Shown here piece after piece: positions 17,323 to 39,161 of a DNA stretch of 43,825 nt. A program made the translations under genes and the position numbers. Source of the DNA: an uncultured archaeon (lineage in GTDB: Archaea > Thermoproteota > CALKCG01 > B24). Within the stretch, counting starts at the first letter, position 1, and each line of letters begins with the position of its first letter. Location of the stretch: NCBI GenBank assembly GCA_938082915.1, contig CALKCG010000039.1, positions 1-43,825 on the forward strand, in the 5' to 3' direction. A model generated the notes under the pieces. The model was not told the DNA's origin, did no database searches, and was given only the letters and a program-made list of their open reading frames with translations.

Positions 17323-17336
17323 GGAAGGTCACCACG

Positions 17337-23926: not shown

Positions 23927-24409
23927 TCACGTTTTTATGGCAGCAATTATCTCGCCTATGGCTTTGGACACTGCTTTCGCGCTATTGTGGGAGACCAACC
24001 TCTTCTCTTGTCGATCCCCGAGCTGCTCCGTCAAATCTAGTGCGAGTTCGACCATGCTCGTCAAGTAGCGCATAAGCGGCATCCCGCCGTGGAGCATTTT
24101 ATCGAGCACCTGTGCGTGAGTCAGGGGCTTCTGTTTTGCGTATACGGCCAGTAAGAACACGGTTAACGCTAGTCCAGCACTCCATGGGACTTTTACGAGG
24201 CTTCTACCGTTTTCCTTCTCAAGCGAATACTCGATTCTATTGATGTCTAGGGTTAAGAGTATATGCTTGTAGAGTTCGGACGCCCTCTTTCCTCCTAGCG
24301 TAATGTAGTATCGTGATTCTATGCTTGGAAATTTGACTCCCATCATGCACCTCTTAGGGTTCCTCGAGTGCTTGTATATCAGCCAGTATTCGCCCTCTGT
24401 CTTGACCAT
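23927..24409 (-). CDS. hypothetical protein (160 aa), last gene of the methyltransferase/ATPase operon
   Basis: ATG start 6 nt after the upstream stop. No motif recognised. Confidence 0.6.
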   Translation of the reverse strand: MVKTEGEYWLIYKHSRNPKRCMMGVKFPSIESRYYITLGGKRASELYKHILLTLDINRIEYSLEKENGRSLVKVPWSAGLALTVFLLAVYAKQKPLTHAQVLDKMLHGGMPLMRYLTSMVELALDLTEQLGDRQEKRLVSHNSAKAVSKAIGEIIAAIKT

Positions 24410-24415
24410 GAAGTC

Positions 24416-25243
24416 TCACCCCACTATCAGCATTGTTGAGAATGGGCTTAAACACGCTTTCTCCCCCGTGAACGCGTGGAGTAGGGAGCATCCATCTGGC
24501 TCTAGGGAGACGTCATATCCGTGGTCAGATAAAACTAGGACCGTGTAGTCTTCAGATAAGATGGCTATTTCAAACGCTATATCCTCAATAACTCTATGAA
24601 GGCTGACGGACATGTCGGACGTGCTCGGAAACTTTTCATACTGAGTTCTGTGGACCAGCTCATCAATGCCTCTCAGGACGGTATACCCCGCCGCCTTAAA
24701 CCTAGTTTTGAGAGCTTCTCCTACTGTGAACATAGTCATTTTTTCAAGTTGGGATTTGAGGATTATGGAAGTCAAATACTCGTATGTCTTAGTCGCACCA
24801 CCTGGATTTATCGAATACAGTAGCCCGTCTAAGTGAATAATTTTGGAGAACCTGTCGTAAAGGTATACGTATTCTGGAAGGGATAGGCAATCGCACAAGA
24901 CTACGTATGGTTTTTTCTTACGCGTCCTAAGGGCGGATTCGACTTTTTCAATAGCGTAGAGGATGCTCCCACCTGAAAGAATTAAGCCCTCCTTGGATAG
25001 TCTGTTCATAGAACCTATAAAGGCTTTACCTATTTCAACCGACTCCTCTAGTAGAGGATTGCGGGAAACTTGCTCGCAAAACTCTGGTCTACCGTAGGCT
25101 ACGCATAAACATGTAAAAAGCATATGCGCATATCTCTTTAACGATTCATCCCTCAGGGATAGTCTAATGGATTTGGAAAGCTTAAATGCATAGTCCCTAA
25201 GCAGGCTTAGGGAGGAGGACCACTCAACCCTCAACTCATCCAC
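24416..25243 (-). CDS. Miniature PglZ-like / alkaline-phosphatase-superfamily protein (275 aa)
   Basis: The ordered motifs YVVLCDCLSLPE (metal-ligand Asp region), NPGGATKTYEYL (nucleophile Ser/Thr region) and TVLVLSDHGYD (DHG motif) reproduce the PglZ/alkaline-phosphatase core layout. GTG start overlaps the ATPase stop by 8 nt. Confidence 0.55.
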   Translation of the reverse strand: MDELRVEWSSSLSLLRDYAFKLSKSIRLSLRDESLKRYAHMLFTCLCVAYGRPEFCEQVSRNPLLEESVEIGKAFIGSMNRLSKEGLILSGGSILYAIEKVESALRTRKKKPYVVLCDCLSLPEYVYLYDRFSKIIHLDGLLYSINPGGATKTYEYLTSIILKSQLEKMTMFTVGEALKTRFKAAGYTVLRGIDELVHRTQYEKFPSTSDMSVSLHRVIEDIAFEIAILSEDYTVLVLSDHGYDVSLEPDGCSLLHAFTGEKACLSPFSTMLIVG

Positions 25244-28200
25244 CAGACTTCTTCAGCTTGATCATGTTCTCATCTACCCCTATCCTTCTAAACTGTTCAA
25301 GTATTTTCTCCCTCTTCATCCTCTCCTCAAAGTACATAGTGAGAGAGACGTTCCTCAAGTCGCCCCCAAATTTCTCTAACATATTCTTGATGTTTAATAC
25401 TTCGACCACCCTTAAGGGTAGCTTCGACAAATCGACGCTTCCCCCTCTAATGTTTGCTGAGAAGTCTACGGCTTGGATACTGCTTAGATGGGGCTCTAAC
25501 TTACCTAAATGCATCACCGTTATGGTGACGTTATTAGTTCCATATACTTCAACTACGTTGTACTCCTCTGGAGGCGGGGGTGGAAGAGCTTTTACGCGCT
25601 CTACCACGATCTTTGCATCTTCTACAGATACTTTCACCTCATTTATCTCCGGGTCTGGTAGAGGATATATGCCACTTAGTATCTTCACAGCGCTCTCAAC
25701 AGCTGATTTAGATACTGGTTTTATCGGTATCTCAGGCCACCCCTTCACTATAGATTCAACCATGTACGTGGAGTCCATTTCAAGCCTCTTACCTGCTAGA
25801 AGGTCGTGTTTATGTTTCTCTGCGTATTTCTTCACGTACTCTATGAGGCTGGCTTTTATATCCGGGGTCTTCCGTATGTTGCATTTTCCACTTACGGCGT
25901 TTAAAATCCATGCCGGCAGCTCACCGTAAACCTCCTCAAACTTATTCGCAGACCTCTCAAGCGTCACTCTCAAATCCGCGTGTGTTATGGAGTCTATCAC
26001 AGGGTCGTAGTAGACGACTGTCTTGAAGAGGCTTATGAGATTCGCCGTATAGTTGCTTATGGCCGATGAAGTTAGGCCGGCTGCGTAGCTTTCGATCTTC
26101 TTGTGCATATGCTCCATTATCTCTAAAAGCACTTCCTCAAACTCCTGCTCGCTTTCATAGTACTCCTTGAGCGTAGGTATTGTTGGAGCCCTCTTTATCA
26201 TATTAATCCTCCTACGTCTGACCTGCTCTGGCTCGCCGACTTTTAAGTAATTTATGGCGGTGGAGGCCGCGTTGACTGATGCTATGTGATTGCAGATCCT
26301 AGAGAGGTCTTCGAGTGAGACGTCGGGGATCACCATGGCGAACATGTTTATGTACGGTATTTCGCTCCTATACTTCCGGATGATTGCTTCAGCTTCCTCA
26401 ACGTAATTTACCTTGGACTTTCCTAGTAGACTCGCCTCCAACACGCTCCAAGGAGATACCGTTAGTATCGTGAACGAGTCTCTGTCGAGGAGTTCTATAA
26501 ACTCAGGCTTACCTTTGAAACTGACCACGTGCTTCATCCAATCTATCAAGTAGAGCTTTGGAGGGGCTACTTTCCCAGACTTGCTTTGGAAGAAGCTCGT
26601 CAGTGGGTACTGATTGATCATATGGTCTTTAAAGTAGTTAAGCATGGCATTATAATCCCTCTTATCAACTCCAGCTTTCTCACGTTCTTCTTTGACCGTT
26701 TGCTCTATGAGCTCAGATGGATTTGGAAGAAGAGTGATTATGTAGTGTTCTAAACCGCCATATTCAAAGCTGTGTAAATATGGCAGCTTCTTAAACTCTT
26801 CGAAGGCTTCGTTAAACTTCTTGAGGCATTCCTCCGCCACAGCGCCTATGAGCGTTGTAGCAATGTCGAGTTTTGTAGCAGCTCTAAGCTTTACCTCAGC
26901 GCTCTCGATTTTAGACAGTACCTCGGGAGCTCTTATCATATCCAGCAGTTTAACTACGTTTTCAGTTATGGACTTAGCGTAAACCGTTGACGCCATGGCT
27001 AACATAAGCTCTCTAATGTCTTCGTCCTCAATCCTCTGAATAGTGCTCTCCCATAAATCGTAGATCCTCATCCACTCTCTTGCGATGCGTTCGCTCATAA
27101 CGTAACTGAAGTCTTCAGGTGCTAAACGGGTTATACTCATAAGCGTACACTCAGTCCACTTCGTGGACGTGAGCCTATTTATCAACGACGCCGTAATCTT
27201 CAGAAGGTCCCTTATATGCTGCGACCTCGGAAGGTCTGCCCCAAAAGTGGGATGTATAAACTTCTGTAGGAGGACTTCATAGCTTGGAGAAAACGGGTAG
27301 AATTTATCAAGCCTCCCCGTGAAATTGAGGACTTCATCTTTACCGATTAAACCCGCAAACTCTTCCTCTATATGTTTTTTAAGAGTTTGCACAGCATCCT
27401 GTTTTCTGGCTTTGAACCTTAATAGCCTCAGGGCTAGTATGTTTAGGGCGTCTTCAACCCCTAGTGGCTTTAAAGTTGATGGTTTAAGTCTCCCAACTCT
27501 ATCGTTCAACTCCCCAATGGCATCTACTAAGAGTGGTATGGTCTTATCGACTTCAGAATGAATGAGGTACTTTGATACCCTAGACCATCTTTCTACGTCC
27601 TGCTGAGCGGATGCATATATGAAGACCAGCGGTACTACTCCTCTAGAGTATTCTAAAAGCTCCTTGAGAAAAGATATGAGGTCCATTAGGCTTTTGATTC
27701 TTTCAATGGAGCCCCCATCGATTGTACTACGAACTCCTCCATAGAGTTCATCTACTACGACTAGTATTGGCGTAGGCTCTCTAAGACTTGAAATAAGGGT
27801 ATTAACGGCTTCTATAGGTCTGAGCTTACTAAGGCCCCTAAGGAAGCTCGGGTCTAAGACTTTAATTCCATGAACCTTAGACTTGTGCTCCAGTATTCTA
27901 GCTGCCACCTCGAATATCGCGTCGTAGGGCTTGAACTCCTTAGGGCATCTTAACATGTCTATCGCGAAGATCAACGTTCTCTCAGCCACTCTCCTATCGT
28001 AGTCGTATTTCCAGAGGGCGTTGGGGTCCAATACTTCTCTAATGTCATCAAAGTCCCAGCGGTATGTTTGAGCATAGAGGTGCCACAATAGTGTGAGGAA
28101 GTGGGTCTTTCCAAAACCCATCTCCTGGGTTAGAGACAGAGCGACTGGAGCTTCTCGAACGACTTTAAGCCCTCCGTTGACCATTTTTAAAGCATCAGCC

Positions 28201-28418
28201 ATCGGGTCGAAGTACGTTATCGATAGAAACGTAACGGTATCTAGGAATTCGTCGCTCACTACGACGCGCGGGTCAAACAGCTCGTGTTCAATTATCATGC
28301 CGAGGCTTGGCGCGAGTCTACCCACGTACTCACCTGGACTGAGCTTGCTATAGGCTTCCACAAGCTGAGTTGGTTCGACCACATCTTTCAACCTAGGAAT
28401 GTACATGTACAACTTCAC
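25236..28418 (-). CDS. Very large P-loop ATPase, DUF499 / BrxC-PglY-class (COG1483-like)
   Basis: 1060 aa. Walker A EMGFGKTHFLTLL near residue 100, Walker B ILVVVDELYGG. GTGA overlap with the methyltransferase stop. Family call rests on size, motif placement and the characteristic pairing with a DUF1156 methylase. Confidence 0.75.
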   Translation of the reverse strand: MKLYMYIPRLKDVVEPTQLVEAYSKLSPGEYVGRLAPSLGMIIEHELFDPRVVVSDEFLDTVTFLSITYFDPMADALKMVNGGLKVVREAPVALSLTQEMGFGKTHFLTLLWHLYAQTYRWDFDDIREVLDPNALWKYDYDRRVAERTLIFAIDMLRCPKEFKPYDAIFEVAARILEHKSKVHGIKVLDPSFLRGLSKLRPIEAVNTLISSLREPTPILVVVDELYGGVRSTIDGGSIERIKSLMDLISFLKELLEYSRGVVPLVFIYASAQQDVERWSRVSKYLIHSEVDKTIPLLVDAIGELNDRVGRLKPSTLKPLGVEDALNILALRLLRFKARKQDAVQTLKKHIEEEFAGLIGKDEVLNFTGRLDKFYPFSPSYEVLLQKFIHPTFGADLPRSQHIRDLLKITASLINRLTSTKWTECTLMSITRLAPEDFSYVMSERIAREWMRIYDLWESTIQRIEDEDIRELMLAMASTVYAKSITENVVKLLDMIRAPEVLSKIESAEVKLRAATKLDIATTLIGAVAEECLKKFNEAFEEFKKLPYLHSFEYGGLEHYIITLLPNPSELIEQTVKEEREKAGVDKRDYNAMLNYFKDHMINQYPLTSFFQSKSGKVAPPKLYLIDWMKHVVSFKGKPEFIELLDRDSFTILTVSPWSVLEASLLGKSKVNYVEEAEAIIRKYRSEIPYINMFAMVIPDVSLEDLSRICNHIASVNAASTAINYLKVGEPEQVRRRRINMIKRAPTIPTLKEYYESEQEFEEVLLEIMEHMHKKIESYAAGLTSSAISNYTANLISLFKTVVYYDPVIDSITHADLRVTLERSANKFEEVYGELPAWILNAVSGKCNIRKTPDIKASLIEYVKKYAEKHKHDLLAGKRLEMDSTYMVESIVKGWPEIPIKPVSKSAVESAVKILSGIYPLPDPEINEVKVSVEDAKIVVERVKALPPPPPEEYNVVEVYGTNNVTITVMHLGKLEPHLSSIQAVDFSANIRGGSVDLSKLPLRVVEVLNIKNMLEKFGGDLRNVSLTMYFEERMKREKILEQFRRIGVDENMIKLKKSGG

Positions 28419-31400
28419 CTCTCATACAGGAGTTTAAGCACGTTTTCTATAAAGGGTTTATTTAGCCTTGTAATGCCGAACGACTTCAACTCATCCTCTC
28501 TAGCGGTTAGCAGTAGGAATAGTGCAACAGCCACAACCTGTCTACTATATGGAAATAGCGTCCTTACTCGTTCCGCGGCTCTACTGACCTCTTCGACTGC
28601 TGGAATATCCGCTAAAATTTTCGTGAGCCTTAAAGCCATGCCTGAGGCGGTTTTATCCAGGACTTCGACTCTACGCTTGATGAGTTCCAGAGCCTCTCTA
28701 CCGTAAATTACTTTACGTGAGGAGCCGCCTTTAGCCTCTAGTAGCCCAAGGTTTTTAAGTCTGTCGAGGCTCGTACCGATGACCTTACAGATTTTTTCGC
28801 CGAAGTCATATTCAACGGTCGATTCCTCTGAGAACCTTGTGGACATCCATAGGAGTAAGTAGGCCTTCGAGTCGTTATCCACTAAGAGTATGTCGTTGAC
28901 CATGTTTTCAGCCAAAGCCTCTTCAACGCCGGCCTTCTTAAAGGCCTCTTTAAGAGCGCCCTCCAGAATCCTCGAAACACCATGGTATAAAGCCACCGGG
29001 TATAGGCTTTCCCTGAAGAACTGCAGTAACATAATAAACCTATATACGTCTCCAGCGCCCAAACCCTCCGCTTCGGTAAACTCATCTATAGGTCTAACAC
29101 CACGCTTAACAGATACTGCCTCAATCGACGGGTTCCATATTCTCGTGGCACCTGCTATCGCACCGGCTAAAGCCATTATGTACTTTTCGTATTCTGAAGC
29201 TCCAGATTCTATGGCGCTCTGAAGAGCATCCACCGTGCTTGACACGATAGCCCGTTTAACGTCTTCATTTATCGATAGGTCCCTAACGTCTCTAGTGCCG
29301 ACGACTACTCTCTCGCCCGCCTTTCTAGTCACGATCGCCAAACTTGAGAAGAACGCTGACCCTGCTAACGCAACACGTCTCTCAGCCATCTCCGTCCTTA
29401 TGGTCCAAACCTTCGTGACCATGAAGCCTGAAGCGTATAGAGCGCTTAGAATGCCCTCCCAAGCCTCTGGGTCGCTGTGAGTAAACCACACTATGAGGGC
29501 GCCGTCGTCTTTGAGGCTTTTATGGGCTTCTCGGAAGAACATCCACATGTTTTTCACGTACCAATCTCTACTATGCGTCGTCTTCATGCGTTCTAAAATC
29601 TCCAGAGCACTCCTCCCTTTGGCAGAGACTTTAACGGTCTTTCTCTCTATGATTTCACCATCCCTAGGCACGGTCGATAGTATGGGACTCCAACCCGAGA
29701 CGAAAAGCTCAGCTCTACTAGGCTCACCTCTATTGAACAAATAGCCTGCGTCTATAGCAGGAGACAAAGTGACTCTTAAGACCTGCCAGAAGAACTCGCT
29801 TATATCGCTGTAGGTGTGCTGGTCGAAATACGGAGGGTCTACATTAATAACATCGACGCTCTTCTCGCCCAATATCTTAGAAAGATCCACAGCGTCGGCC
29901 ATCAGAACCTTAACCCTATCGCCTAAGCCTCCGACCCAAGAGCACAAGTGCTTGAGCACGGGGCATATACCACCATGGGTCTTAGTAGGCTCTTCGACGT
30001 CAGGCTCAAAAACCCAGCCCAGTGATTTGTGAGGGTCTTCAACTATGGGAGGCATTTCACAGTATTCGAGACCAAGACCTATCTTTCTTGTTCTTGCATA
30101 GTGGTCCATAAGTTCTCTTATGGTTCTGGTAGTATCGTCCCATGTAGTTGTAATGTTATTAAAATTCATCAGTTTATCAATGCCAAAAGCTAAATAGAAA
30201 ATACCAGCTAATCTGAACTCCGCTTTTTCATCAATTGATTCTTTAATCCTTGCTCTGACGTATTTTACCAGCTTCATCAAAATTAAAAGCTGCCTCGGAT
30301 TGAATAGCTCATACCAGTAATCTATCCCCAGGTCTGTCACAGGCTTGAATACTTCGTTCTCGGCTTTGTATATTGGGTCTGATGGTATGTAGTCTTTGAG
30401 CTCTTCGCTCAGCCTAGTTAGGTCTAGGTATGCCTCGGTAAACCTCTCCACGTCTTCCTTCGCTGCTGCCTTAAACCCCCTCTTAGTCTGCTTGACGAGT
30501 AGGATGTGTGTCCGATTGAGCTCTTCAACAGATTCTTTGGCTGATTTGAAGTCCCCGCTCAAAGCGGTCTTCAAGAGCCTCTTATGCCTTGAAACCCAGT
30601 CTCGAAGGGCAACTTCCTCTACTACTGGAGCCTTGCAGTACGGGCACCTAAGCCTGGTAAACTCTGCCTCCACTTCGGAGATATCCACCGCGAAGCTCTT
30701 CTTCTCCCCATCGAAGCTGAACTTTATATACGGTCCATTCTTCCCAAGTCTCGTAGTATGTATTATCGGAATCAAGCCTCCGCAGGATTTACACATATAC
30801 CCTCTGGCGATTATATAGTTCATAGCATCCTCAGGATAGTACTTCCCAAGTTCCTTCCTAGCCCAACCTATGAGCCTCTCAGCCTCAGCCTTAACCTCCT
30901 CGTAAAGCCTCACACCATATTTGGCAGGGTACTCAAGCGTGGCCTTGAGGATCAAGTAGGCGACGGGGTTGTACTCCATAGCAACCGTCCTAAAGCCAAG
31001 CCTCAAAGCCTCCAAAGGAATAGAGCCACCACCAGCCATAGGGTCTACGATGAGTATTTCACTAGAATTCTTGCCTATTTTTTCCTTCAAGACGTCATCT
31101 AGATGCCTTCTTTTAGGATTTGAATTAAGGAGTATTGGCAGAATTTTTTGTGTGGCTAAGTCAGATATATCATTAAAACCAACAATTTCTCTAAAGAGGT
31201 CTTTACTGAAATTATGGGGAAGAATAGCAGCTAGATTGAGTATTCTTGAAAGTGCCATCGGGCGCCTCGCAAACCAAGGATGGAGATTATTTGGCTGCGG
31301 GGTTCCTACGTTAAGCACCGTTGGATCTACACTATACAGACTTAAAAATTGAGGCCTGTACTTGTTCCTCGAAATTCTGAATGAAATCTCAATGGCTGCG

Positions 31401-31456
31401 TGGAGATTCATTTCTGATAGAGGAAGCCATTCTTCAACAAGCCTTCTAAAAGACAT
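28415..31456 (-). CDS. DUF1156-type Zn-ribbon-containing DNA methyltransferase (COG1743-like; N6-adenine/N4-cytosine class)
   Basis: 1013 aa. DUF1156 signature NLHPWFARRPMALSRIL, SAM motif I IVDPMAGGGSIPLEALRLG, ribbon CKSCGG...CPYCKAPV, catalytic motif IV VINVDPPYFD. GGAGG lies 8 nt upstream of the ATG. Confidence 0.9.
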   Translation of the reverse strand: MSFRRLVEEWLPLSEMNLHAAIEISFRISRNKYRPQFLSLYSVDPTVLNVGTPQPNNLHPWFARRPMALSRILNLAAILPHNFSKDLFREIVGFNDISDLATQKILPILLNSNPKRRHLDDVLKEKIGKNSSEILIVDPMAGGGSIPLEALRLGFRTVAMEYNPVAYLILKATLEYPAKYGVRLYEEVKAEAERLIGWARKELGKYYPEDAMNYIIARGYMCKSCGGLIPIIHTTRLGKNGPYIKFSFDGEKKSFAVDISEVEAEFTRLRCPYCKAPVVEEVALRDWVSRHKRLLKTALSGDFKSAKESVEELNRTHILLVKQTKRGFKAAAKEDVERFTEAYLDLTRLSEELKDYIPSDPIYKAENEVFKPVTDLGIDYWYELFNPRQLLILMKLVKYVRARIKESIDEKAEFRLAGIFYLAFGIDKLMNFNNITTTWDDTTRTIRELMDHYARTRKIGLGLEYCEMPPIVEDPHKSLGWVFEPDVEEPTKTHGGICPVLKHLCSWVGGLGDRVKVLMADAVDLSKILGEKSVDVINVDPPYFDQHTYSDISEFFWQVLRVTLSPAIDAGYLFNRGEPSRAELFVSGWSPILSTVPRDGEIIERKTVKVSAKGRSALEILERMKTTHSRDWYVKNMWMFFREAHKSLKDDGALIVWFTHSDPEAWEGILSALYASGFMVTKVWTIRTEMAERRVALAGSAFFSSLAIVTRKAGERVVVGTRDVRDLSINEDVKRAIVSSTVDALQSAIESGASEYEKYIMALAGAIAGATRIWNPSIEAVSVKRGVRPIDEFTEAEGLGAGDVYRFIMLLQFFRESLYPVALYHGVSRILEGALKEAFKKAGVEEALAENMVNDILLVDNDSKAYLLLWMSTRFSEESTVEYDFGEKICKVIGTSLDRLKNLGLLEAKGGSSRKVIYGREALELIKRRVEVLDKTASGMALRLTKILADIPAVEEVSRAAERVRTLFPYSRQVVAVALFLLLTAREDELKSFGITRLNKPFIENVLKLLYER

Positions 31457-31515
31457 TCTAATGCCTCCACGTCTTAAGAGACTCGACCTTAAACTTCCAG
31501 CTGTAGAGGGAATAC

Positions 31516-32262
31516 TTAACCATGAGCTTCACCTTCCATGCACTTTGGACATATATGCATTATCGGGCATATGTCGCACTCCGGCTTCTCCCTGCAGTAG
31601 TAGAAGCCTATGTGCCACAGTCCAGCGTCCAGTGCCATAGGTGGCACCTTAAACTTCATCCTGACGACCTTATCGGCTTCCTCTAGTGTTGCATCCTTTG
31701 GTATGATGTGCGTCCTTTCTAAAACTCTCATGACTGGGTCTGCTGGCGATAGGTTTACGTTCTTAATATCGAGCTTAATTATATCGGCTAATCTGAGTTC
31801 TCTGACTATCCCCGGTGCCAAGACCGGTCCTATGCCGGGTAGCTTACTGAGGTCGTTTTCTAGAATCTTAGCATCCGTGAATTTGGCGAAATATTTGACT
31901 AGGCTTCCTCCATTATTTACGGCTATACTCACCAACTCTCTGAAGAACCTTAAAAGCCCTGCAAACCCTCCATGGGGATTAAACCTTGGTATAGTCCTAG
32001 CCACGCCTACTACGGCTTCTTCCACTCTACTGATCCCGTGTTTTTGATTTATTTCAAGTAGACGCTCAAGGGAGATCATCCTCGCAAACTCGTCTAAAGC
32101 GTGCTCGGGGGTTCCAGTAGGCCATTGATAGGTTCTCCAACAGATTTGGAATGCTGCCTCTTCTGAGCCTAACCTGTCTACCATGTCTAAGAGCTCCATC
32201 CTATACTCATCAGTCTTCATCAAGCAGAACCTTGTGAGCTCGTCTATTAAGGCCTGGCTCAT
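31516..32262 (-). CDS. Endonuclease-III-like helix-hairpin-helix protein with C-terminal Fe-S cluster loop (putative DNA glycosylase/lyase-like)
   Basis: HhH motif LSKLPGIGPVLAPGIV, followed by SPADPVMRVLERTHII (position of the EndoIII VDTH-x-x-RV segment). C-terminal C-x5-C-x2-C-x5-C (CREKPECDICPIMHIC) compares with EndoIII C-x6-C-x2-C-x5-C. ATGA overlap with the upstream wHTH gene. Confidence 0.65.
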   Translation of the reverse strand: MSQALIDELTRFCLMKTDEYRMELLDMVDRLGSEEAAFQICWRTYQWPTGTPEHALDEFARMISLERLLEINQKHGISRVEEAVVGVARTIPRFNPHGGFAGLLRFFRELVSIAVNNGGSLVKYFAKFTDAKILENDLSKLPGIGPVLAPGIVRELRLADIIKLDIKNVNLSPADPVMRVLERTHIIPKDATLEEADKVVRMKFKVPPMALDAGLWHIGFYYCREKPECDICPIMHICPKCMEGEAHG

Positions 32263-32453
32263 ACCTCCTCCCTCCAGAACAAGTGTATTTTACTAGAGCC
32301 CTTGTACCGTACGCCCTTCTTCGTCATGGCTAGGTGCATCAACGCATCCTTAGCGGTCTTGTAGTTTATCCCAAGCCTCTTGGCGACCTCGTTCGGCGTG
32401 GCTGGTTCATCCGTAAGCACGTTGTAAACGGCTTCTTCGTACTTACTTGGCAC
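32259..32453 (-). CDS. Small winged-helix DNA-binding protein (64 aa), first gene of the operon
   Basis: TPNEVAKRLGINYKTAKDALMHLAMTKKGVRYKG is an HTH plus wing. GTG start. Confidence 0.6.
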   Translation of the reverse strand: MPSKYEEAVYNVLTDEPATPNEVAKRLGINYKTAKDALMHLAMTKKGVRYKGSSKIHLFWREEV

Positions 32454-33045: not shown

Positions 33046-33375
33046 TTAAAATAGTTCTCCATACTTGCTCACGTGGTCTTCTACTGCCTTCTCCTGGTTG
33101 TCTATAGAGCCGTCCCATTCGTCTAACTCCTTTTCCATCTTTGACCAATGTGCATAAATGTCTTCAGCTACTTCCTCCCCTTCGATCTTTAGTACCGCAT
33201 CACCTTTCCCTTCTTTCCGCGCTTGTCGGATGTTATGAAGGGGTCTATATATACGTACTCTAACCCCATGCTCTTCCAAGGTAGTCTGTCTAGGAACCCT
33301 CCAGTTCTCAAGAGTGGTTTGACCCCTTAATCTATTAAAACTGGACACGTTTTCACCTCCCAATAATATGGCCAC
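33046..33375 (-). CDS. hypothetical protein (109 aa)
   Basis: ORF only. Its 5' end overlaps the start of the divergent 33368 ORF, so one of the two starts is wrong or this ORF is spurious. Confidence 0.3.
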   Translation of the reverse strand: MAILLGGENVSSFNRLRGQTTLENWRVPRQTTLEEHGVRVRIYRPLHNIRQARKEGKGDAVLKIEGEEVAEDIYAHWSKMEKELDEWDGSIDNQEKAVEDHVSKYGELF

Positions 33376-34009
33376 AGACAGAGAAATCGTTAAAAGAGGA
33401 AAAACTTATCTCATTTGTCTCACTTATCTTAATAACGTGATGTTGGAAAGTGAAAGTAGAGCTTTTAGGGAGTGTATTAAGATGGCTAAGATGCTTTATG
33501 AATTGGATGGTTTATACGATGACCTCCTTAAATCTGCGTCAAATGAGCCCGCTGAGTTCGAAAGAAAGCTTTTGGACTTTATATCGCTCGTAAATAGGGT
33601 TAAGAAGAAGATCGAGTTGTTCAGTATGGTTTATAGCGTAGGTCCAATCATTGACATCGCATCTGATCCCAGCGATGAGAGGAATGCATTAGTTAAGGTC
33701 GGCTTGAAAATGAGGCGTTATAAATATGAAAGTAAACCGATTAAAGTCCGCCAATTCATAGTCGCAGAAATCTTGCCATTAACTGAGGCGCACTTGAAAT
33801 CAGAAGATGTTATAAAGGCGGCCGTCAGTAGAGCTTCTAAACGTGAGCTTATATCACCAGGTGAAGCAGCTAGATCGCTCAATGTCTCATATAAAACTCT
33901 CTGGAGGTGGTGGAAGGAGGGGAAGATCAAAGCCGTTAGATTGCCTTCAGGGCGATTAAGATATTACAGGCATGAGGTTGAAAAATTGATGAAAAACGCC
34001 GTCGGCTGA
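33368..34009 (+). CDS. Protein with C-terminal excisionase/MerR-type HTH domain
   Basis: C-terminus ISPGEAARSLNVSYKTLWRWWKEGKIKAVRLPSGRLRYYRHEVEKL is an excisionase-family HTH. N-terminal ~160 aa unknown. Internal ATGs (for example residue 25) are alternative starts. Confidence 0.6.
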   Translation: MATDREIVKRGKTYLICLTYLNNVMLESESRAFRECIKMAKMLYELDGLYDDLLKSASNEPAEFERKLLDFISLVNRVKKKIELFSMVYSVGPIIDIASDPSDERNALVKVGLKMRRYKYESKPIKVRQFIVAEILPLTEAHLKSEDVIKAAVSRASKRELISPGEAARSLNVSYKTLWRWWKEGKIKAVRLPSGRLRYYRHEVEKLMKNAVG

Positions 34010-34224: not shown

Positions 34225-36546
34225 TCACGTACCCAATTTTAACATCCACCTCTCCACTCCATTTCTCTTTTCAACCTCCACTCCTCTGCTCCGCCTTTTT
34301 AATAGCTCTTTAAGCTCTTGCTTGAAAAGTTCGTCGGGCATGAAAATCCTGATAGCTCTTTCATACATTACCATCGATTTATCGCCATGCTTTTTCCACT
34401 TTTTCACTGGAGAGGATGACGTACATTTGAGACCCCTTTTCTCCGCCAGTTTACGTATTTCGCTACTGAGCTCATCAAGCCTTTTATAACACTTGCGCCG
34501 CTTGGCACCGGTACTGATGACTACTATTTGAAGCTCTGGTGGCTTCAAAGTAGTAGGAGTGGAACGTTGGCGGATTAATCGCCATTCTTTTAAGGGTTCT
34601 TCCACCTCCAGTCCTTCTTTATACGCGAAGACTCCTCCTCTTTCTTTAACGTAGGATAGAAACTCGGACAGTAGACCCTCAGAGCATCGATTAATAGAAT
34701 TGGAATTTCCCACAACTATGAGCTTGCATCTAGCCCTCGTAAAGGCGACGTTGAGCCTGTTAGGGTCTTCGACAAAGGATAGGCTTGAAGTGGCGGTGAC
34801 ACTAAATATTATGACATCCTTCTCCCTACCTTGGAAGGCATCTACAGTATTTACTTCTATTTCGTCGTCCTCTAAAGATTCCCTTAACTTACGCATCTGA
34901 GACTTAAATGGTGTAATAACACCTATCTGAGCACTATGAATACCGAGACTTTTCAATGCAAAGACCACTCTCTCGATGGCCTCAACTTCTAGTGGATTAT
35001 ACTTGGACCTCCCCTCGACTACTTCAGACCCCTCCACCTCTAGGAACACGACAGGCCTCTCGGGGTTTAGAAATTCTAAATCGGCTGGAGGCCGTCTTTT
35101 CAAACTGAGCTTTATGCCTCTGCACGCCTCAACGGGAGTTATCTTCCCTTCGTAGATGTACCTTTGTGAGAACCCTATGATATCGCTGTTACTCCTATAG
35201 TGCCATCTGAGCCACAGAGCTCTATTTCCATAGGTATCCAGCATATGGCAAAAAGCGCTCAGCTCTTTCTGAACATCTTCTTTTTCGGTCTTAAAAATCG
35301 GTAGTAATTGCTTATGATCTCCTATGAGGACCCACTTGTTAGCCTTAATCATTCCAAGCAGGGCTAATATTATGGATGCTTGACTGCACTCATCTATTAA
35401 AGCTACGTCAAACCTCTCATTCGCCAGAGGATATAGCTGAGACTTTATTAGCGTAGACCCGATGATATTAGCGGCTTTTACAAGCCTCTCGCTTTCAGCT
35501 CTAAGCATTCTGTTCCTTTCTTCAAATAGCATCCTAAGCTCTTGCCTCAGACTAACGCCCTTATCCCTGATGCTAGAATACTTATCTTTAAACCCAACTT
35601 CATACCATTCTCTCCTGAGCTCGTAGAGCCCTTTAATGTTCCTCCTCAATGCATCTATTTTGTTCTCCAATTCTTCAAGTTTAGCTCCAAGTGCCGTCCT
35701 CCTAGCCTTATAGCTTAAAAGATAGGGTCTTACGTTTTTCAGAACTTTCTCAGGTCTACCGACCCTAAGGGACTCTTCAACTGGTAAGATTTCGATGGCG
35801 TTGTCCACTGCCCTATTCGTGTGAGAGGCTATCAGAACCCTTTCACCCCTTTTAGAGAGCTCGTAGGCAGCCTTGGCTATGACCCTGGTCTTGCCAGTAC
35901 CGGGAGGCCCTATGATCAAAAGGAGTTCACTGTCATTTAGACCTAAAATATGTTCAATCGCGTCTACTTGAGAGCTGTCAAGTTGAAACTTTCCGCTCAA
36001 GTCCATTCTATCGTTGAGAGTTACTCTGCGAGGTAGGGGCATATCTACGGCATTTAGCATTACTTGAACAGCCTTCATCTCCACCTGGTCGAGCTCTCCA
36101 GTCACTATCCTGTCTATAAGCTCTAGCTGTAAGTCGTAACCAACGAGGACTTCAGCTTCGCATAGCTCTATAGACTCACCCTCCTTCAAGTCCGTAGGTT
36201 TAAACAGCCCTATGGTGGATACGGTACCACTAGCTATGACGGTTCCGAGGGGCTCTATTCCTTTTAATGGGCTTAGGCGACCTACAACGTCGCCTTCTTC
36301 AAACCTAGGAAAGCTGCATTCGATTGTAACAGCTTCATCTTCTACATCGAGGACCTCGCCTTTAACACGTTCCGTAATTGCCCTCTTCTTTTCCTCGTTT
36401 CTCTCATTTAAGAGAAGTCTTTTCATGAATTTTAAAAGCTCATTTAAGTCATCGAACAGAGTGCTCTTACCGCACTTCCAACACTTGATGGAGTCAGGTG
36501 TGATTCTCATTCCACATCTGGGGCAAAACTTCAACGATCCCTTCAC
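34225..36546 (-). CDS. Superfamily-1 helicase of the Upf1/Dna2-like (AAA_11/AAA_12) type with N-terminal zinc ribbon
   Basis: 773 aa. CPRCG...CWKCG ribbon, Walker A IIGPPGTGKTR, Walker B DVALIDECSQ, LIGDHKQLLP (motif III), long coiled-coil insertion, VNTVDAFQGREKDVIIFS and NVAFTRAR (motifs V/VI). Confidence 0.9.
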   Translation of the reverse strand: MKGSLKFCPRCGMRITPDSIKCWKCGKSTLFDDLNELLKFMKRLLLNERNEEKKRAITERVKGEVLDVEDEAVTIECSFPRFEEGDVVGRLSPLKGIEPLGTVIASGTVSTIGLFKPTDLKEGESIELCEAEVLVGYDLQLELIDRIVTGELDQVEMKAVQVMLNAVDMPLPRRVTLNDRMDLSGKFQLDSSQVDAIEHILGLNDSELLLIIGPPGTGKTRVIAKAAYELSKRGERVLIASHTNRAVDNAIEILPVEESLRVGRPEKVLKNVRPYLLSYKARRTALGAKLEELENKIDALRRNIKGLYELRREWYEVGFKDKYSSIRDKGVSLRQELRMLFEERNRMLRAESERLVKAANIIGSTLIKSQLYPLANERFDVALIDECSQASIILALLGMIKANKWVLIGDHKQLLPIFKTEKEDVQKELSAFCHMLDTYGNRALWLRWHYRSNSDIIGFSQRYIYEGKITPVEACRGIKLSLKRRPPADLEFLNPERPVVFLEVEGSEVVEGRSKYNPLEVEAIERVVFALKSLGIHSAQIGVITPFKSQMRKLRESLEDDEIEVNTVDAFQGREKDVIIFSVTATSSLSFVEDPNRLNVAFTRARCKLIVVGNSNSINRCSEGLLSEFLSYVKERGGVFAYKEGLEVEEPLKEWRLIRQRSTPTTLKPPELQIVVISTGAKRRKCYKRLDELSSEIRKLAEKRGLKCTSSSPVKKWKKHGDKSMVMYERAIRIFMPDELFKQELKELLKRRSRGVEVEKRNGVERWMLKLGT

Positions 36547-37142
36547 CTGTTGGAGGGTAAATCCAAGATTTTAGTATACTTGTCCAGTCTCCTAACAGCC
36601 CATACGAAGTCCCTCATCTTTGAGATGAATTCTCCCTTTAACCTATCTAGTTCAACCTCTCTATCAGCAGGATGCAATTTACTCGACGTTATAACTTCTT
36701 CTATCCTATGGGCTATCGAGTGTATCTCCTCGTCTAATCTCTGAAGCCCTTCCCTCAAAGAGGGTGGTATTGCTTCAATCTGTTTGACTATAAGTTTTTG
36801 TAAAACTTGCATAGCCTCTTCTTCTTTAAGACGAAACCTTTTCTCTCTTAGAAAGGAGAGCTCTTCAGACGCTTTCGTAATCACGCCTATGACATTCCAA
36901 TTAACTCTTACTTGGGCTGGAAAACGCCCACCCCAAGCCTCGGGCTCGACATTATATCCCCCATCACAACTGGCGGTAAACGGTCCGAAAAGCACATCCG
37001 TTTCAATGTTGTATAGAAAGAGAGTATCACCCTTTTTAACTTCCTTTACGGATTCCCACATTCTCTCAGTATCTCCGAAGAGCCTCCTCTGAAAGCACTC
37101 GGCCTCTGTTTCCTTTTTGCAGATAAACTTCCAGTACATCAT
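36543..37142 (-). CDS. DCD-domain (PUA/EVE-like superfamily) protein with C-terminal coiled coil
   Basis: YWKFICKKETEAECFQRRLFG ... KKGDTLFLYNIETDVLFGPFTASCDGGYNVEPEAWGGRFPAQVRV reproduces the DCD signature blocks (FG, LFLYN, G-x-F-x-A, FPAQVR). ATGA-type 4-nt overlap with the helicase start. GGAGG upstream. Confidence 0.8.
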   Translation of the reverse strand: MMYWKFICKKETEAECFQRRLFGDTERMWESVKEVKKGDTLFLYNIETDVLFGPFTASCDGGYNVEPEAWGGRFPAQVRVNWNVIGVITKASEELSFLREKRFRLKEEEAMQVLQKLIVKQIEAIPPSLREGLQRLDEEIHSIAHRIEEVITSSKLHPADREVELDRLKGEFISKMRDFVWAVRRLDKYTKILDLPSNR

Positions 37143-37684: not shown

Positions 37685-38032
37685 ATGGGAGGTGGTGTTT
37701 TGTCCAGTCCCGAAGACAAATACGGACTTCTCCCTAGAATCTCAGAGAGCATCGCTGAGAAAATCCTCGCCGAAGTCTCGGATTTCGCATCTTTCATGAA
37801 GCACGACCCAGATGGAGCTAAGCGCTCCGTTGAGTCCGATGTAGAGTGGCTCAAGGAGAACAAGGGCTTCTTGGGCAATGCAGTCGAGGCATCGGTGGAT
37901 GCCTCGCTCGACTTATACAGTGAAACCCTAACGCATAAGGAATGGGTTGAGCTTAGGACTTTCCTGTTGAAGGGCGTCTTATTAATGATTCAAATGATAA
38001 ACGAGGCGTTGAAGAAACAAGCCATTGACTAA
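37685..38032 (+). CDS. hypothetical alpha-helical protein (115 aa)
   Basis: ORF with ATG start; no motif recognised. Confidence 0.4.
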   Translation: MGGGVLSSPEDKYGLLPRISESIAEKILAEVSDFASFMKHDPDGAKRSVESDVEWLKENKGFLGNAVEASVDASLDLYSETLTHKEWVELRTFLLKGVLLMIQMINEALKKQAID

Positions 38033-38975: not shown

Positions 38976-39161
38976 TTGATGTCAGAAGTCTCAGAGAAGC
39001 TATTGACAACGGGTGAAGTAGCCAGAAGGCTTCAAGTCAGCATAAAAACGGTTCAGAGGTGGGTTAAAGAGGGGAGGCTCAGAGCGATAAAGTATCCAAG
39101 TGGTCGTTTCAAAGTCCCCGAGAGCGAGGTTGAGAAAATATGGGAGTCGTTAAGGCAGTAG
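38976..39161 (+). CDS. Excisionase/MerR-type HTH protein (61 aa), resembling the N-terminal DNA-binding domain of IS607-type TnpA without a recombinase domain
   Basis: LLTTGEVARRLQVSIKTVQRWVKEGRLRAIKYPSGRFKVPESEVEKI. Its end overlaps the tnpB start by 22 nt. Confidence 0.7.
   Translation: MMSEVSEKLLTTGEVARRLQVSIKTVQRWVKEGRLRAIKYPSGRFKVPESEVEKIWESLRQ

What the first reader, a model, noticed from the sequence alone, without database searches (positions are those of the whole stretch)
34225..37142. DCD (EVE/PUA-like modified-base reader) gene translationally coupled to a Zn-ribbon Upf1/Dna2-like SF1 helicase
Seen:
- The 199-aa ORF reproduces the DCD signature blocks: RRLFG, TLFLYN, LFGPFTA, FPAQVRV. 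A coiled-coil tail follows.
- Its stop overlaps the start of a 773-aa helicase by 4 nt.
- The helicase has all the SF1 motifs, an N-terminal CxxC...CxxC ribbon, a coiled-coil stalk insertion and a ~150-aa uncharacterised C-terminal extension.

Established: DCD and EVE domains belong to the PUA-like superfamily, whose prokaryotic members are predicted readers of modified bases. They are frequently linked to modification-dependent restriction and other defence genes. Upf1-like helicases recur as defence effectors.

Inference: this is a two-gene modified-nucleic-acid-sensing module (type-IV-restriction-like or RNA-surveillance-like). It sits 1.8 kb from a modification-writing system, so a reader and a writer lie side by side in one island. 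No nuclease domain is evident, so the mechanism is open.
Basis: partly seen in the sequence, partly recalled or inferred. Interest (0 to 1): 0.7.

Follow-up and report, generated by a model that had tools for sequence, protein, structure and literature searches.

The report
Archaeal modified-base reader paired with helicase
Two tightly packed genes in an archaeal mobile island encode a small "reader" protein of the family that recognises chemically modified DNA/RNA bases and an Upf1-type helicase; the pairing recurs in about half of related loci from uncultured archaea. It looks like an undescribed variant of modification-sensing antiviral defence, but its function is untested.

Summary
ORF 36543-37142(-) is a genuine DCD/PUA-like protein (Pfam E 1.2e-23; model matches EVE and YTH readers). 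ORF 34225-36546(-) is an intact Upf1/IGHMBP2-like SF1B helicase with a Zn ribbon, 1B barrel, stalk and a helical hairpin insertion.

New findings:
It also occurs fused to an Mrr_N-like winged helix.
- The pairing is facultative. Readers also sit beside GIY-YIG or GmrSD genes, and helicases occur alone or with coiled-coil PLD partners (Mokosh-like).
- Both genes recur next to N6-adenine methyltransferase systems (DUF1156 BREX-related, Eco57I-like).
- The helicase's C-terminal 131 aa are specific to this lineage.
- No nuclease is present in the pair.

Best reading: a portable modification-sensing reader plus motor defence module that works beside methylation-based systems. It is a new variant of a known kind and is absent from PADLOC and from the papers I searched. 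Ligand, target and mechanism remain inferred.

The parts
36543..37142 (-). DCD-CC gene (199 aa): stand-alone DCD/PUA-like reader with a conserved helical-hairpin tail. A GGAGG Shine-Dalgarno-like site lies 8 nt upstream of the ATG.
   Evidence: ORF. Pfam PF10539 E 1.2e-23. Upstream sequence. 36 full-length cluster representatives at 51-66% identity.
36795..37142 (-). DCD domain, aa 1-116: PUA-like beta-barrel. Residues conserved at 95% or more include W4, F6, C8, E15, C16, F17, N45, P54, F55, W70, Q77, V78.
   Evidence: AF2 model pLDDT about 90-97. Foldseek hits: PH1033 EVE 2hd9 E 2.7e-7, VcaM4I 6yex, MJECL36, many YTH domains. Conservation.
36546..36764 (-). C-terminal helical hairpin tail, aa 127-199. 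Motif: LDEEIHxLAHRxEE ... HPADRE ... KMRDFVWAVRxLDK ... LPSN(K/R).
   Evidence: Helices 127-152 and 158-190. Mean conservation is 0.74 for the tail, 0.34 for the linker and 0.60-0.73 for the DCD core. L136, D137, I140, H141, A144, H145, E148, E149, H157, A159, M176, F179, V180, W181, R184, L195, P196 and S197 are conserved at 95% or more. The same tail is fused to an Mrr_N-like domain in L062 (hhalign probability 97.7%).
34225..36546 (-). Upf1/IGHMBP2-like SF1B helicase (773 aa from the GTG; an alternative TTG start at 36534 would give 769 aa).
   Evidence: AAA_11 and AAA_12. PDB phmmer IGHMBP2 E 1.2e-44, Upf1 E 2.6e-39. Foldseek IGHMBP2 E 1.7e-36 over about 660 columns. TIGR00376 288 bits, below the cut-off of 349. 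PADLOC MkoA 6.5e-74, helicase core only. Junction sequence.
36466..36528 (-). N-terminal Zn ribbon, CPRC...CWKC, aa 7-27.
   Evidence: Weak Pfam zinc-ribbon hits. The CxxC...CxxC pattern is conserved in most close homologues. The database gene call P0056 (761 aa) starts at M13 and cuts through it.
36055..36447 (-). Long helix, six-stranded beta-barrel (1B-like) and stalk helices, aa 34-164.
   Evidence: AF2 secondary structure. The region is included in the roughly 660-column structural alignments to IGHMBP2 and Upf1.
35287..35991 (-). RecA1 domain, aa 186-420, with Walker A GPPGTGKT and DECSQ. It holds a helical hairpin insertion at aa 285-358 (nt 35473-35694), at the 1C position.
34621..35259 (-). 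RecA2 domain, aa 430-642, carrying motifs IV-VI.
   Evidence: AAA_12 hit. Invariant QGREKD and VAFTRAR.
34228..34620 (-). Lineage-specific C-terminal extension, aa 643-773: a disordered linker followed by a small alpha/beta domain.
   Evidence: No homologue covers it. The only remote relative among 1.84 billion representatives is the C-terminal half of a 160-aa protein, P0178, E 9.5e-8. No Pfam or PDB sequence hit. AF2 pLDDT 54-84.
33368..34009 (+). Convergent HTH_17 / excisionase-like gene (213 aa). This is context, not a core part.
   Evidence: Pfam HTH_17 E 3.5e-9. PADLOC mad1. PHROG excisionase/regulator. A 28%-identical homologue lies 1.4 kb downstream of the helicase in L028.
23927..32453 (-). 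Neighbouring methylation system. It comprises a small wHTH (32259-32453), a 248-aa protein, a DUF1156 N6-adenine methyltransferase (28415-31456), a 1060-aa P-loop ATPase (25236-28418), and 275-aa and 160-aa proteins.
   Evidence: DUF1156, HmaB and anti-phage DUF1156 hits. Walker A GFGKTH and VVVDE read in the translation. The four-gene block is 57-73% identical to one in Ca. Methanodesulfokora washburnensis, where it lies next to a DCD-CC gene.

Best explanation
The two genes form a portable, modification-sensing reader-plus-motor module carried on an integrated mobile or defence island of an uncultured thermophilic archaeon.

Proposed mechanism:
1. The DCD domain reads a modified base in nucleic acid, using a PUA/EVE/YTH-type pocket. 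This step is inferred.
2. Its conserved hairpin tail couples that recognition to partner proteins. This step is inferred.
3. The co-translated Upf1/IGHMBP2-like helicase is the ATP-driven effector. It probably translocates 5'-3' on single-stranded DNA or RNA, and would unwind or strip the flagged molecule. The catalytic motifs are shown to be intact. The activity itself is inferred.

Because the pair has no nuclease, it probably acts together with neighbouring systems rather than as a self-sufficient restriction enzyme. The candidates are N6-adenine methyltransferase systems of the BREX-related or type IIG kind, or GmrSD.
For: Identity of the parts:
- DCD by Pfam and a PUA-like fold.
- An intact SF1B helicase closest to IGHMBP2, Upf1 and SETX.

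Linkage:
- The helicase lies directly downstream, on the same strand, in 13 of 25 informative clusters at 90% nt identity (one search gave 12 plus the window at 95%).
- Spacing ranges from a 4-nt overlap to tens of nt.
- Reader and helicase pairwise identities co-vary, Pearson 0.87 and Spearman 0.66, over 9 loci including the window (36 pairwise comparisons).

Defence or mobile context:
- GmrSD, DCD-CC and helicase form an operon with 10-nt and 29-nt gaps in L153/L154.
- DCD-CC lies upstream of a GIY-YIG protein that matches PADLOC PDC-M57B at E 1.3e-60.
- DUF1156 or PglZ BREX-related systems lie beside the pair in the window, L155-157 and L036/37.
- Eco57I-like methyltransferases lie beside it in four clusters.
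- AbiE, integrases and transposases are nearby.
- Several reader genes are pseudogenised.

Other points:
- Helicase relatives carry fused Mrr_cat (P0158) or have a coiled-coil PLD partner.
- The tail also occurs on an Mrr_N-like winged helix, another sensor-type domain.
- Published precedent exists: prokaryotic DCD and EVE domains are predicted specificity modules of modification-dependent restriction (PMC7641849).
Against: - No binding, ATPase or infection data exist.
- There is no nuclease in the pair.
- The link is facultative. Twelve clusters have a reader with no adjacent helicase. Close helicases at 56-59% identity lack a reader.
- The tail is as conserved in helicase-less loci as in linked ones, so it is not simply a helicase-docking element.
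- No sequence similarity was found between the tail and the helical parts of other helicase partners.
- Adjacency to host methyltransferases makes it unclear whether a self mark or a foreign mark is read.
- All relatives come from metagenomes or MAGs. Helicase genes elsewhere in the same genomes could therefore not be excluded.
Confidence: 0.5

Rival explanations
1. The reader and the helicase are not an autonomous system. They are accessory parts of the adjacent methylation-based systems (DUF1156/DUF499 BREX-related 'BR/Hma', or Eco57I-like type IIG). They would play the role that stand-alone EVE, ASCH/PUA, RAMA or Tudor reader modules are proposed to play there, for example scanning the self m6A mark or extending restriction to modified invaders.
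For: - DUF1156-type methyltransferase systems lie beside DCD-CC and/or the helicase in five independent loci: the window, L011 (reader only), L036/37/50, L155-157, and L151 (helicase only, next to a canonical DUF1156-DUF499-SNF2/NOV_C system).
- Eco57I-like methyltransferases lie within 110-530 nt in four clusters.
- The window's BR-like block lacks the usual SNF2 helicase-nuclease.
- Published reports describe EVE next to COG1743-DUF499-SNF2 (PMC7641849) and reader modules in BR systems (PMC12839542).
Against: - Position and orientation relative to the methyltransferase systems vary: upstream, divergent, convergent, at 0.1-5 kb.
- Several pair loci show no methyltransferase in the DNA available (L021, L028, L030, L034), but those contigs are short.
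- L151 already has its own SNF2-nuclease, so the SF1 helicase is not a replacement there.
- Defence genes cluster in islands in any case.
Confidence: 0.22
2. Danger-signal sensing with abortive infection. The DCD pocket binds a free modified nucleotide or a short degradation product, for example m6-dAMP released when a virus degrades the methylated host chromosome. This switches on the helicase as a toxic ATPase or translocase.
For: - A PUA-domain defence protein was recently reported to be triggered by methylome-derived m6-dAMP (bioRxiv 10.64898/2026.01.15.699771, abstract).
- Recurrent adjacency to N6-adenine methyltransferases would supply such a self-derived signal.
- The absence of a nuclease fits an effector other than restriction.
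Against: - No data address this possibility here.
- The helicase keeps nucleic-acid-binding accessory domains (Zn ribbon, 1B barrel, stalk) that are typical of substrate-directed Upf1-like enzymes.
- Operons with GmrSD or GIY-YIG point to targeting of nucleic acid.
Confidence: 0.1
3. Cellular RNA surveillance or remodelling. The reader recognises a modified base in host RNA, and the Upf1-like helicase remodels or clears such RNAs. This would be an archaeal counterpart of eukaryotic reader-plus-helicase RNA quality control.
For: - The closest solved relatives are RNA helicases: IGHMBP2, Upf1 and SETX.
- Eukaryotic DCD and YTH domains are linked to modified mRNA (PMC7641849).
- Thermophilic archaeal RNAs are heavily modified (general knowledge).
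Against: - Distribution is patchy and metagenome-only, with pseudogenes.
- The genes lie in an integrase-bounded island with a GC shift.
- Neighbours are restriction-modification, GmrSD, AbiE, transposase and TnpB genes, not translation or RNA-processing genes.
Confidence: 0.08
4. Replication or maintenance function of the mobile element that carries the pair: an SF1 helicase acting as the element's replication helicase, with the DCD-CC protein as its regulator.
For: - The window's pair lies in a region that starts with a tyrosine integrase and a Cas4-like nuclease and includes an excisionase-like HTH.
- PCNA genes lie near the pair in L006 and L148.
Against:
- The flanking genes differ in almost every locus, and no conserved replication gene set accompanies the pair.
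Confidence: 0.05

Closest known systems
Prokaryotic DCD/EVE specificity modules of modification-dependent (type IV-like) restriction (Bell, Wolf and Koonin 2020, PMC7641849)
   Same: - It uses the same DCD domain family.
- It occurs in archaea and thermophiles.
- It is a stand-alone or modular reader in defence islands.
- It neighbours DUF1156 (COG1743)/DUF499 systems and restriction genes.
   Different: - The described DCD partners are type I R-M, PD-(D/E)XK, McrB-like GTPases and fused methyltransferases.
- The main text has no Upf1 mention and no DCD-helicase link. The held supplements have no AAA_11, AAA_12 or COG1112 term.
- The conserved hairpin tail is not described there.
Mokosh (MkoA Upf1-like COG1112 helicase plus PLD nuclease; Millman et al. 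2022 preprint 10.1101/2022.05.11.491447)
   Same: - The helicase core is the best PADLOC match: MkoA 6.5e-74, MkoC 5e-53.
- More distant relatives of this helicase in Methanobacteria do have an upstream coiled-coil PLD gene.
   Different: - The pair has no PLD nuclease and no kinase domain.
- The match covers only the helicase core (aa 174-633).
- The partner here is a base reader, not a nuclease.
CoCoNuT type II/III systems (CnuH Upf1-like helicase with coiled-coil insertions, plus McrBC-type CnuB/CnuC and EVE/YTH-like domains; PMC11090510)
   Same: - The design logic is shared: an EVE-superfamily reader, coiled-coil or helical elements, and an Upf1-like helicase with a barrel and stalk.
- Those systems are also predicted, not tested, to target modified RNA or DNA.
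   Different: - No McrB GTPase, McrC, CnuE or TerY-P genes were found among the ORFs I scanned around the pair.
- The organisation here is two genes.
- The lineage is archaeal, whereas CoCoNuTs are described mainly in bacteria.
DUF499-centred BREX-related (BR / Hma) systems (PMC12839542)
   Same: - The neighbouring genes include a DUF1156 N6-adenine methyltransferase and a P-loop ATPase.
- Reader modules (ASCH/PUA, RAMA, Tudor) are described as parts of, or accessories to, BR systems.
   Different: - The DCD-CC and SF1 helicase pair is not a listed component.
- The BR helicase is an SF2 SNF2-type enzyme, usually fused to a nuclease.
- The window's ATPase gives no DUF499 Pfam hit.
Eukaryotic Upf1 / IGHMBP2 / MOV10L1 helicases working with reader or adaptor proteins
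   Same: - The helicase fold, 1B barrel, stalk and N-terminal Zn-binding element resemble the eukaryotic enzymes.
- The enzyme lacks a nuclease and would depend on partners.
   Different: - No orthology is shown, and identity is only about 24%.
- Prokaryotic operon context is used here instead of eukaryotic pathway evidence.

Membership tests
DCD domain (Pfam PF10539), PUA-like/EVE superfamily | Sequence match to the family profile above the curated threshold | tested here: met
   E 1.2e-23, 83.7 bits against a cut-off of 27.8; protein aa 6-82 match profile positions 5-84 of 126. All 36 full-length homologues carry a precomputed PF10539 hit.
DCD domain (Pfam PF10539), PUA-like/EVE superfamily | PUA-like beta-barrel fold | tested here: met
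   AF2 model pLDDT 89.7. Foldseek hits: PH1033 EVE E 2.7e-7, VcaM4I, MJECL36 and more than 40 YTH entries at E below 1e-3.
DCD domain (Pfam PF10539), PUA-like/EVE superfamily | Binding of a modified base | not testable with these tools
   Conserved aromatic residues (W4, F6, F17, F55, W70) are candidates only. No ligand data exist.
Upf1-like SF1B helicases (AAA_11/AAA_12; IGHMBP2 family) | Two RecA domains with intact SF1 motifs I-VI | tested here: met
   AAA_11 E 1.9e-36 and AAA_12 E 1.3e-42. The motifs are invariant in a 19-sequence alignment.
Upf1-like SF1B helicases (AAA_11/AAA_12; IGHMBP2 family) | Accessory 1B beta-barrel with stalk helices, and an insertion in RecA1 | tested here: met
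   AF2 shows a barrel at aa 61-130, helices at 34-58 and 132-164, and a hairpin at 285-358. Structural alignments of about 660 columns to IGHMBP2 and Upf1.
Upf1-like SF1B helicases (AAA_11/AAA_12; IGHMBP2 family) | NCBIfam TIGR00376 (IGHMBP2 family) equivalog score | tested here: not met
   288.2 bits against a cut-off of 348.9. It is a related protein, not an equivalog.
Upf1-like SF1B helicases (AAA_11/AAA_12; IGHMBP2 family) | 5'-3' unwinding of RNA or DNA | not testable with these tools
   Inferred from family membership only.
Mokosh | COG1112/Upf1-like helicase (MkoA or MkoC) | tested here: met
   PADLOC MkoA 6.5e-74, but covering only the helicase core, aa 174-633.
Mokosh | PLD-family nuclease, either as a partner gene or fused | tested here: not met
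   No PLD hit in either protein of the pair, nor in the other window ORFs scanned with Pfam (those of at least 100 aa between about 15.7 and 34 kb, plus 37685-38032 and 39140-40309). PLD partners occur only with distant relatives in L071 and L073.
CoCoNuT type II/III | McrB-like GTPase (CnuB) and McrC-like (CnuC) genes linked to the CnuH helicase | tested here: not met
   No McrB or McrC family hit among the ORFs scanned around the pair.
Type IV (modification-dependent) restriction enzyme | Modified-base reader domain | tested here: met
   DCD domain.
Type IV (modification-dependent) restriction enzyme | Nuclease domain in the same protein or operon | tested here: not met
None in the window pair.
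DUF499-centred BREX-related (BR/Hma) system (neighbouring genes) | DUF1156 N6-adenine methyltransferase | tested here: met
   Pfam DUF1156 E 3e-5, just above the cut-off. PADLOC HmaB 5e-32. NCBIfam anti-phage DUF1156 7.7e-33, below the equivalog cut-off.
DUF499-centred BREX-related (BR/Hma) system (neighbouring genes) | DUF499 ATPase | tested here: inconclusive
   The 1060-aa protein has no Pfam, PADLOC or NCBIfam hit. It does show GFGKTH and VVVDE P-loop motifs.
DUF499-centred BREX-related (BR/Hma) system (neighbouring genes) | SNF2-type helicase, usually fused to a nuclease, or PglZ | tested here: not met
   No such hit among the window ORFs scanned between 15.7 and 34 kb.

The most novel reading that the evidence does not exclude
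One archaeal clade of Upf1-like helicases takes interchangeable upstream partners. One partner is a DCD base reader with a dedicated, possibly metal-binding, hairpin domain. Another is a coiled-coil PLD nuclease.

On this reading the DCD-CC and helicase pair is the sensing arm of a Mokosh-like, nuclease-in-trans immune pathway. Together these archaeal modules would contain the prokaryotic counterparts of all three piRNA-biogenesis components proposed in the literature:
- MOV10L1-like helicase and PLD6/Zucchini-like nuclease (bioRxiv 10.1101/2022.12.12.520048).
- DCD as the forerunner of eTudor (PMC7641849).

The hairpin tail would be a new portable adaptor or effector domain that can be attached to different modified-DNA sensors (DCD, Mrr_N-like winged helix).
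Probability: 0.15. Interest if true: 0.75.

Novelty: new variant of a known kind. Interest (0 to 1): 0.52.

Why it matters
If it is functional, this would be a modification-sensing immune module whose effector is a nuclease-free Upf1-type helicase. That raises the question of how recognition of a modified base is turned into protection without cleavage.

It would add an archaeal entry to a defence catalogue that is dominated by bacterial systems.

It would also give a simple two-protein system for determining what DCD domains bind. That question is still open for the plant cell-death proteins after which the domain is named.

The conserved hairpin tail is a candidate new domain. The recurrent adjacency to BREX-related methyltransferase systems suggests testable cross-talk between self-marking systems and readers.

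Tried and rejected
1. Hidden nuclease in the helicase C-terminal extension. No Pfam, PADLOC, NCBIfam or PDB sequence hit was found. The extension is absent from every homologue. Its only relative is the C-terminal half of a 160-aa orphan protein. It is not related to the 160-aa gene of the neighbouring system.

2. HEPN-like Rx4-6H motif in the tail. The arginine is not conserved, so this was rejected.

3. A common adaptor shared by all upstream helicase partners. hhalign of the DCD-CC profile against the PLD partner (L071) and a helical partner (L066) gave probabilities below 1%.

4. An EVE-like protein upstream of the Haloarcula helicase (L068). It was not supported: no Pfam hit and hhalign probability 2.7%.

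5. The SF1 helicase as a replacement for the SNF2 helicase of BR systems. L151 has both.

6. Viral or plasmid origin. There were no reader relatives in IMG/VR, PLSDB, INPHARED or BFVD.

7. att repeats bounding the island. None were convincing.

8. tRNA and Rfam scans of the window found nothing. The bacterial-type promoter and terminator scan is uninformative for an archaeon.

9. A tail-only protein search returned only two fragments of split genes.

10. A single-protein scan of genome contigs with the helicase was too specific to be useful, so the organism of the window was not identified. The island genes are closest to Ca. Methanodesulfokora washburnensis.

Full report
OBSERVATION

The 199-aa product (36543-37142) carries the quoted blocks RRLFG, TLFLYN, LFGPFTA and FPAQVRV. 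It matches Pfam Dev_Cell_Death (PF10539) at E 1.2e-23, 83.7 bits against a curated cut-off of 27.8. An AlphaFold2 model built on 15 homologues has mean pLDDT 89.7. It shows a PUA-like barrel (aa 1-116), a poorly conserved linker, and two long antiparallel helices (127-152 and 158-190). Foldseek against the PDB returns the archaeal EVE proteins PH1033 and MJECL36, the modification-dependent endonuclease VcaM4I, and dozens of YTH m6A readers.

The 773-aa product (34225-36546) has AAA_11 and AAA_12 domains and invariant SF1 motifs. Its closest solved relatives are IGHMBP2 (E 1.2e-44), Upf1, Dna2 and Sen1/SETX. Its model (pLDDT 84) resolves the following parts:
- an N-terminal CxxC...CxxC ribbon;
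- a long helix, a six-stranded barrel and stalk helices (aa 34-164), which correspond to the Upf1 1B/stalk arrangement;
- RecA1 with a helical hairpin inserted at aa 285-358;
- RecA2, ending near aa 642;
- a disordered linker and a small alpha/beta domain (aa 671-771).

Two details need correcting.

The genes are therefore either overlapping by 4 nt or separated by 8 nt. The database gene call for the helicase (761 aa) starts inside the Zn ribbon and is probably too short.

Second, the C-terminal extension is about 131 aa and is unique to this sequence. No homologue covers more than about 84% of the query. An exhaustive HMMER search of 1.84 billion representatives found only the C-terminal half of one 160-aa orphan protein, at E 9.5e-8. 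It looks like a lineage-specific fusion. It cannot hold the conserved mechanism.

The 36 full-length representatives I aligned are 51-66% identical to the window protein. All come from metagenomes or MAGs of uncultured archaea.

The "coiled-coil tail" is not a generic coil. Over the 36 representatives its mean column conservation is 0.74. That equals the best half of the DCD domain (0.73), exceeds the other half (0.60), and is far above the linker (0.34). Residues L136, D137, I140, H141, A144, H145, E148, E149, H157, A159, M176, F179, V180, W181, R184 and the terminal L195-P196-S197 are conserved at 95% or more.

The same tail is fused to a different N-terminal domain in locus L062 (hhalign probability 97.7%, E 2.5e-12). 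That domain is Mrr_N-like, with Pfam E 2.9e-5, below the family threshold. More distant DCD proteins replace the tail with PD-(D/E)XK-like or AAA modules.

IS THE PAIR CONSERVED?

I collected 69 loci that carry a reader relative, from genomes, metagenomes and exact-protein look-ups.
- 25 clusters have at least 600 nt of downstream sequence.
- In 13 of those, a helicase of this family lies immediately downstream on the same strand. This count includes the window.
- In 12 it does not, and about a third of those are frameshifted or truncated reader genes.

Spacing runs from the 4-nt overlap (or 8 nt) to a few tens of nt. One locus has a 222-aa ORF inserted between the two genes.

Across 9 loci including the window with complete genes (36 pairwise comparisons), reader and helicase pairwise identities co-vary (Pearson 0.87, Spearman 0.66). 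This fits inheritance as a unit, although close relatives inflate the Pearson value. Further contig-length coincidences between the two hit lists suggest more linked pairs; that is inference only.

A helicase of this family should be rare in an archaeal genome (general knowledge; copy number was not measured here). Thirteen independent same-strand adjacencies cannot be chance.

THE LINK IS FACULTATIVE

Intact readers also occur in other settings:
- upstream of a DUF6884-like gene and a GIY-YIG protein that matches the PADLOC candidate PDC-M57B at E 1.3e-60;
- next to small proteins with D...E-x-K motifs, which I read by eye only;
- near GmrSD;
- beside a methyltransferase system with no helicase, in Ca. 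Methanodesulfokora washburnensis.

Conversely, helicases 56-59% identical to the window's have no reader upstream.

More distant relatives (about 35% identity, Methanobacteria) have an upstream coiled-coil PLD gene, and their helicases are best hits to MkoA. This is a Mokosh-like arrangement. Other relatives carry fused Mrr_cat or ankyrin domains.

CONTEXT

In the window, the first 15.7 kb encode ordinary chromosomal functions. At about 16 kb the GC content rises from about 0.37-0.41 to 0.45-0.52. This region opens with a tyrosine integrase and a Cas4-like nuclease. It also contains an excisionase-like HTH and is followed by a TnpB gene. The pair therefore sits in a probable integrated element.

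Downstream of the helicase, on the same strand, lie:
- a small wHTH;
- a 248-aa protein;
- a DUF1156 N6-adenine methyltransferase (HmaB-like);
- a 1060-aa P-loop protein with GFGKTH and VVVDE motifs but no family hit;
- two small genes.

The last four (methyltransferase, ATPase, and the 275-aa and 160-aa genes) are 57-73% identical to a block in M. washburnensis that lies next to a reader gene.

Across the 32 clusters:
- Eco57I-like methyltransferases do so in four;
- GmrSD does so in three, once as a tight GmrSD, DCD-CC, helicase operon with 10-nt and 29-nt gaps.

AbiE, transposases and integrases are also frequent neighbours.

No reader relative was found in IMG/VR, PLSDB, INPHARED or BFVD.

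INTERPRETATION

Shown:
- a bona fide PUA-like DCD reader with an additional conserved helical domain;
- a catalytically intact Upf1/IGHMBP2-like helicase;
- non-random but facultative operonic linkage;
- defence or mobile-island context, with recurrent N6-adenine methyltransferases and type IV enzymes;
- no nuclease in the pair.

Inferred:
- the DCD pocket reads a modified base;
- the helicase is the effector.

I consider a portable reader-plus-motor defence module working beside methylation-based or type IV systems the most likely reading (0.5).

The main rival is that both genes are accessories of the adjacent BREX-related or type IIG systems (0.22). This would be analogous to the stand-alone EVE next to COG1743-DUF499-SNF2 operons (PMC7641849) and to the reader modules described for BR systems (PMC12839542).

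Lesser rivals are:
- danger-signal sensing of methylome-derived nucleotides, as reported for a PUA-Cal-HAD system (bioRxiv 10.64898/2026.01.15.699771);
- host RNA surveillance;
- a role in replication of the mobile element.

Two results argue against a simple "tail docks the helicase" picture. The tail is equally conserved in readers that have no adjacent helicase. It also shares no detectable similarity with the helical parts of other helicase partners.

COMPARISON WITH KNOWN SYSTEMS

That paper lists type I R-M, PD-(D/E)XK, McrB and methyltransferase partners. Its main text has no Upf1 mention and no DCD-helicase link, and its held supplements have no AAA_11, AAA_12 or COG1112 term.

The helicase core is MkoA-like, but the defining PLD nuclease of Mokosh is absent. 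CoCoNuT type II/III systems share the logic of reader, coiled coil and Upf1-like helicase, but require McrBC-type genes that are absent here.

The literature searches found no description of this pair.

I therefore rate it a new variant of a known kind. The module is of moderate interest. It is not surprising in concept to specialists. It is, however, undescribed and simple enough to test what DCD domains bind, and it carries an unexplained conserved tail domain.

Noticed in passing
H141 and H145 are spaced i, i+4 on one helix, next to the hairpin turn (HPADRE). The protein ends in an invariant LPS. This looks like a possible metal site or a docking motif. No known family matches it.
   Followed up: partly
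window 23927-31456 (-), and L011 5693-12570: A four-gene block: DUF1156 methyltransferase, a 1060-aa P-loop ATPase with no DUF499 profile hit, and 275-aa and 160-aa proteins of unknown family. It is conserved at 57-73% identity in Ca. Methanodesulfokora washburnensis. It lacks the SNF2 helicase-nuclease or PglZ of described BREX-related systems, so it may be an undescribed BR variant.
   Followed up: partly
window 31516-32262 (-): A 248-aa protein lies between the small wHTH and the methyltransferase. It has a weak MutY/HhH-type hit (NCBIfam E 0.002) and a C-terminal Cys cluster (C-x6-C-x2-C-x5-C-x2-C). It may be a glycosylase-like component of the methylation system.
   Followed up: no
window 15728-18017 and about 16000: A tyrosine integrase (416 aa) and a Cas4-like PD-(D/E)XK nuclease sit at a GC-content step (about 0.37 to 0.48). 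Homologous integrases lie near reader genes in L005 and L053. No att repeats or tRNA target were found.
   Followed up: partly
window 38976-40309 (+): A TnpB/Cas12f-like gene (389 aa) is preceded by a 61-aa HTH_17-like ORF. It marks the far side of the island.
   Followed up: no
window 34228-34620 (aa 643-773 of the helicase): The C-terminal extension is homologous only to the C-terminal half of a free-standing 160-aa Cys-rich protein (P0178). This suggests a recent gene fusion. The model predicts a beta-alpha-beta-beta-beta-alpha-beta-beta fold.
   Followed up: partly
L062 2395-2949: A 184-aa protein joins an Mrr_N-like winged helix to the DCD-CC hairpin tail. This shows that the tail is a separable module.
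   Followed up: partly
L153 1190-5354; L035: GmrSD (a type IV restriction enzyme), DCD-CC and the helicase form a three-gene operon with 10-nt and 29-nt gaps.
   Followed up: partly
L071 3943-7289; L073 4241-7478: In Methanobacteria, a 236-243-aa coiled-coil PLD protein is encoded immediately upstream of, and overlapping, a related MkoA-like helicase. This is a compact Mokosh-like pair without a kinase domain.
   Followed up: partly
L013, L014, L055, L060, L051: Several reader genes are interrupted by frameshifts or stop codons. The closely related readers of L036/37 and L050 (90% nt or more) differ in whether a helicase follows. This indicates rapid gain and loss.
   Followed up: partly
Its reader is 90% or more identical to that of L029, which has no such insertion.
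   Followed up: no
It has no Rfam hit and no ORF call.
   Followed up: no
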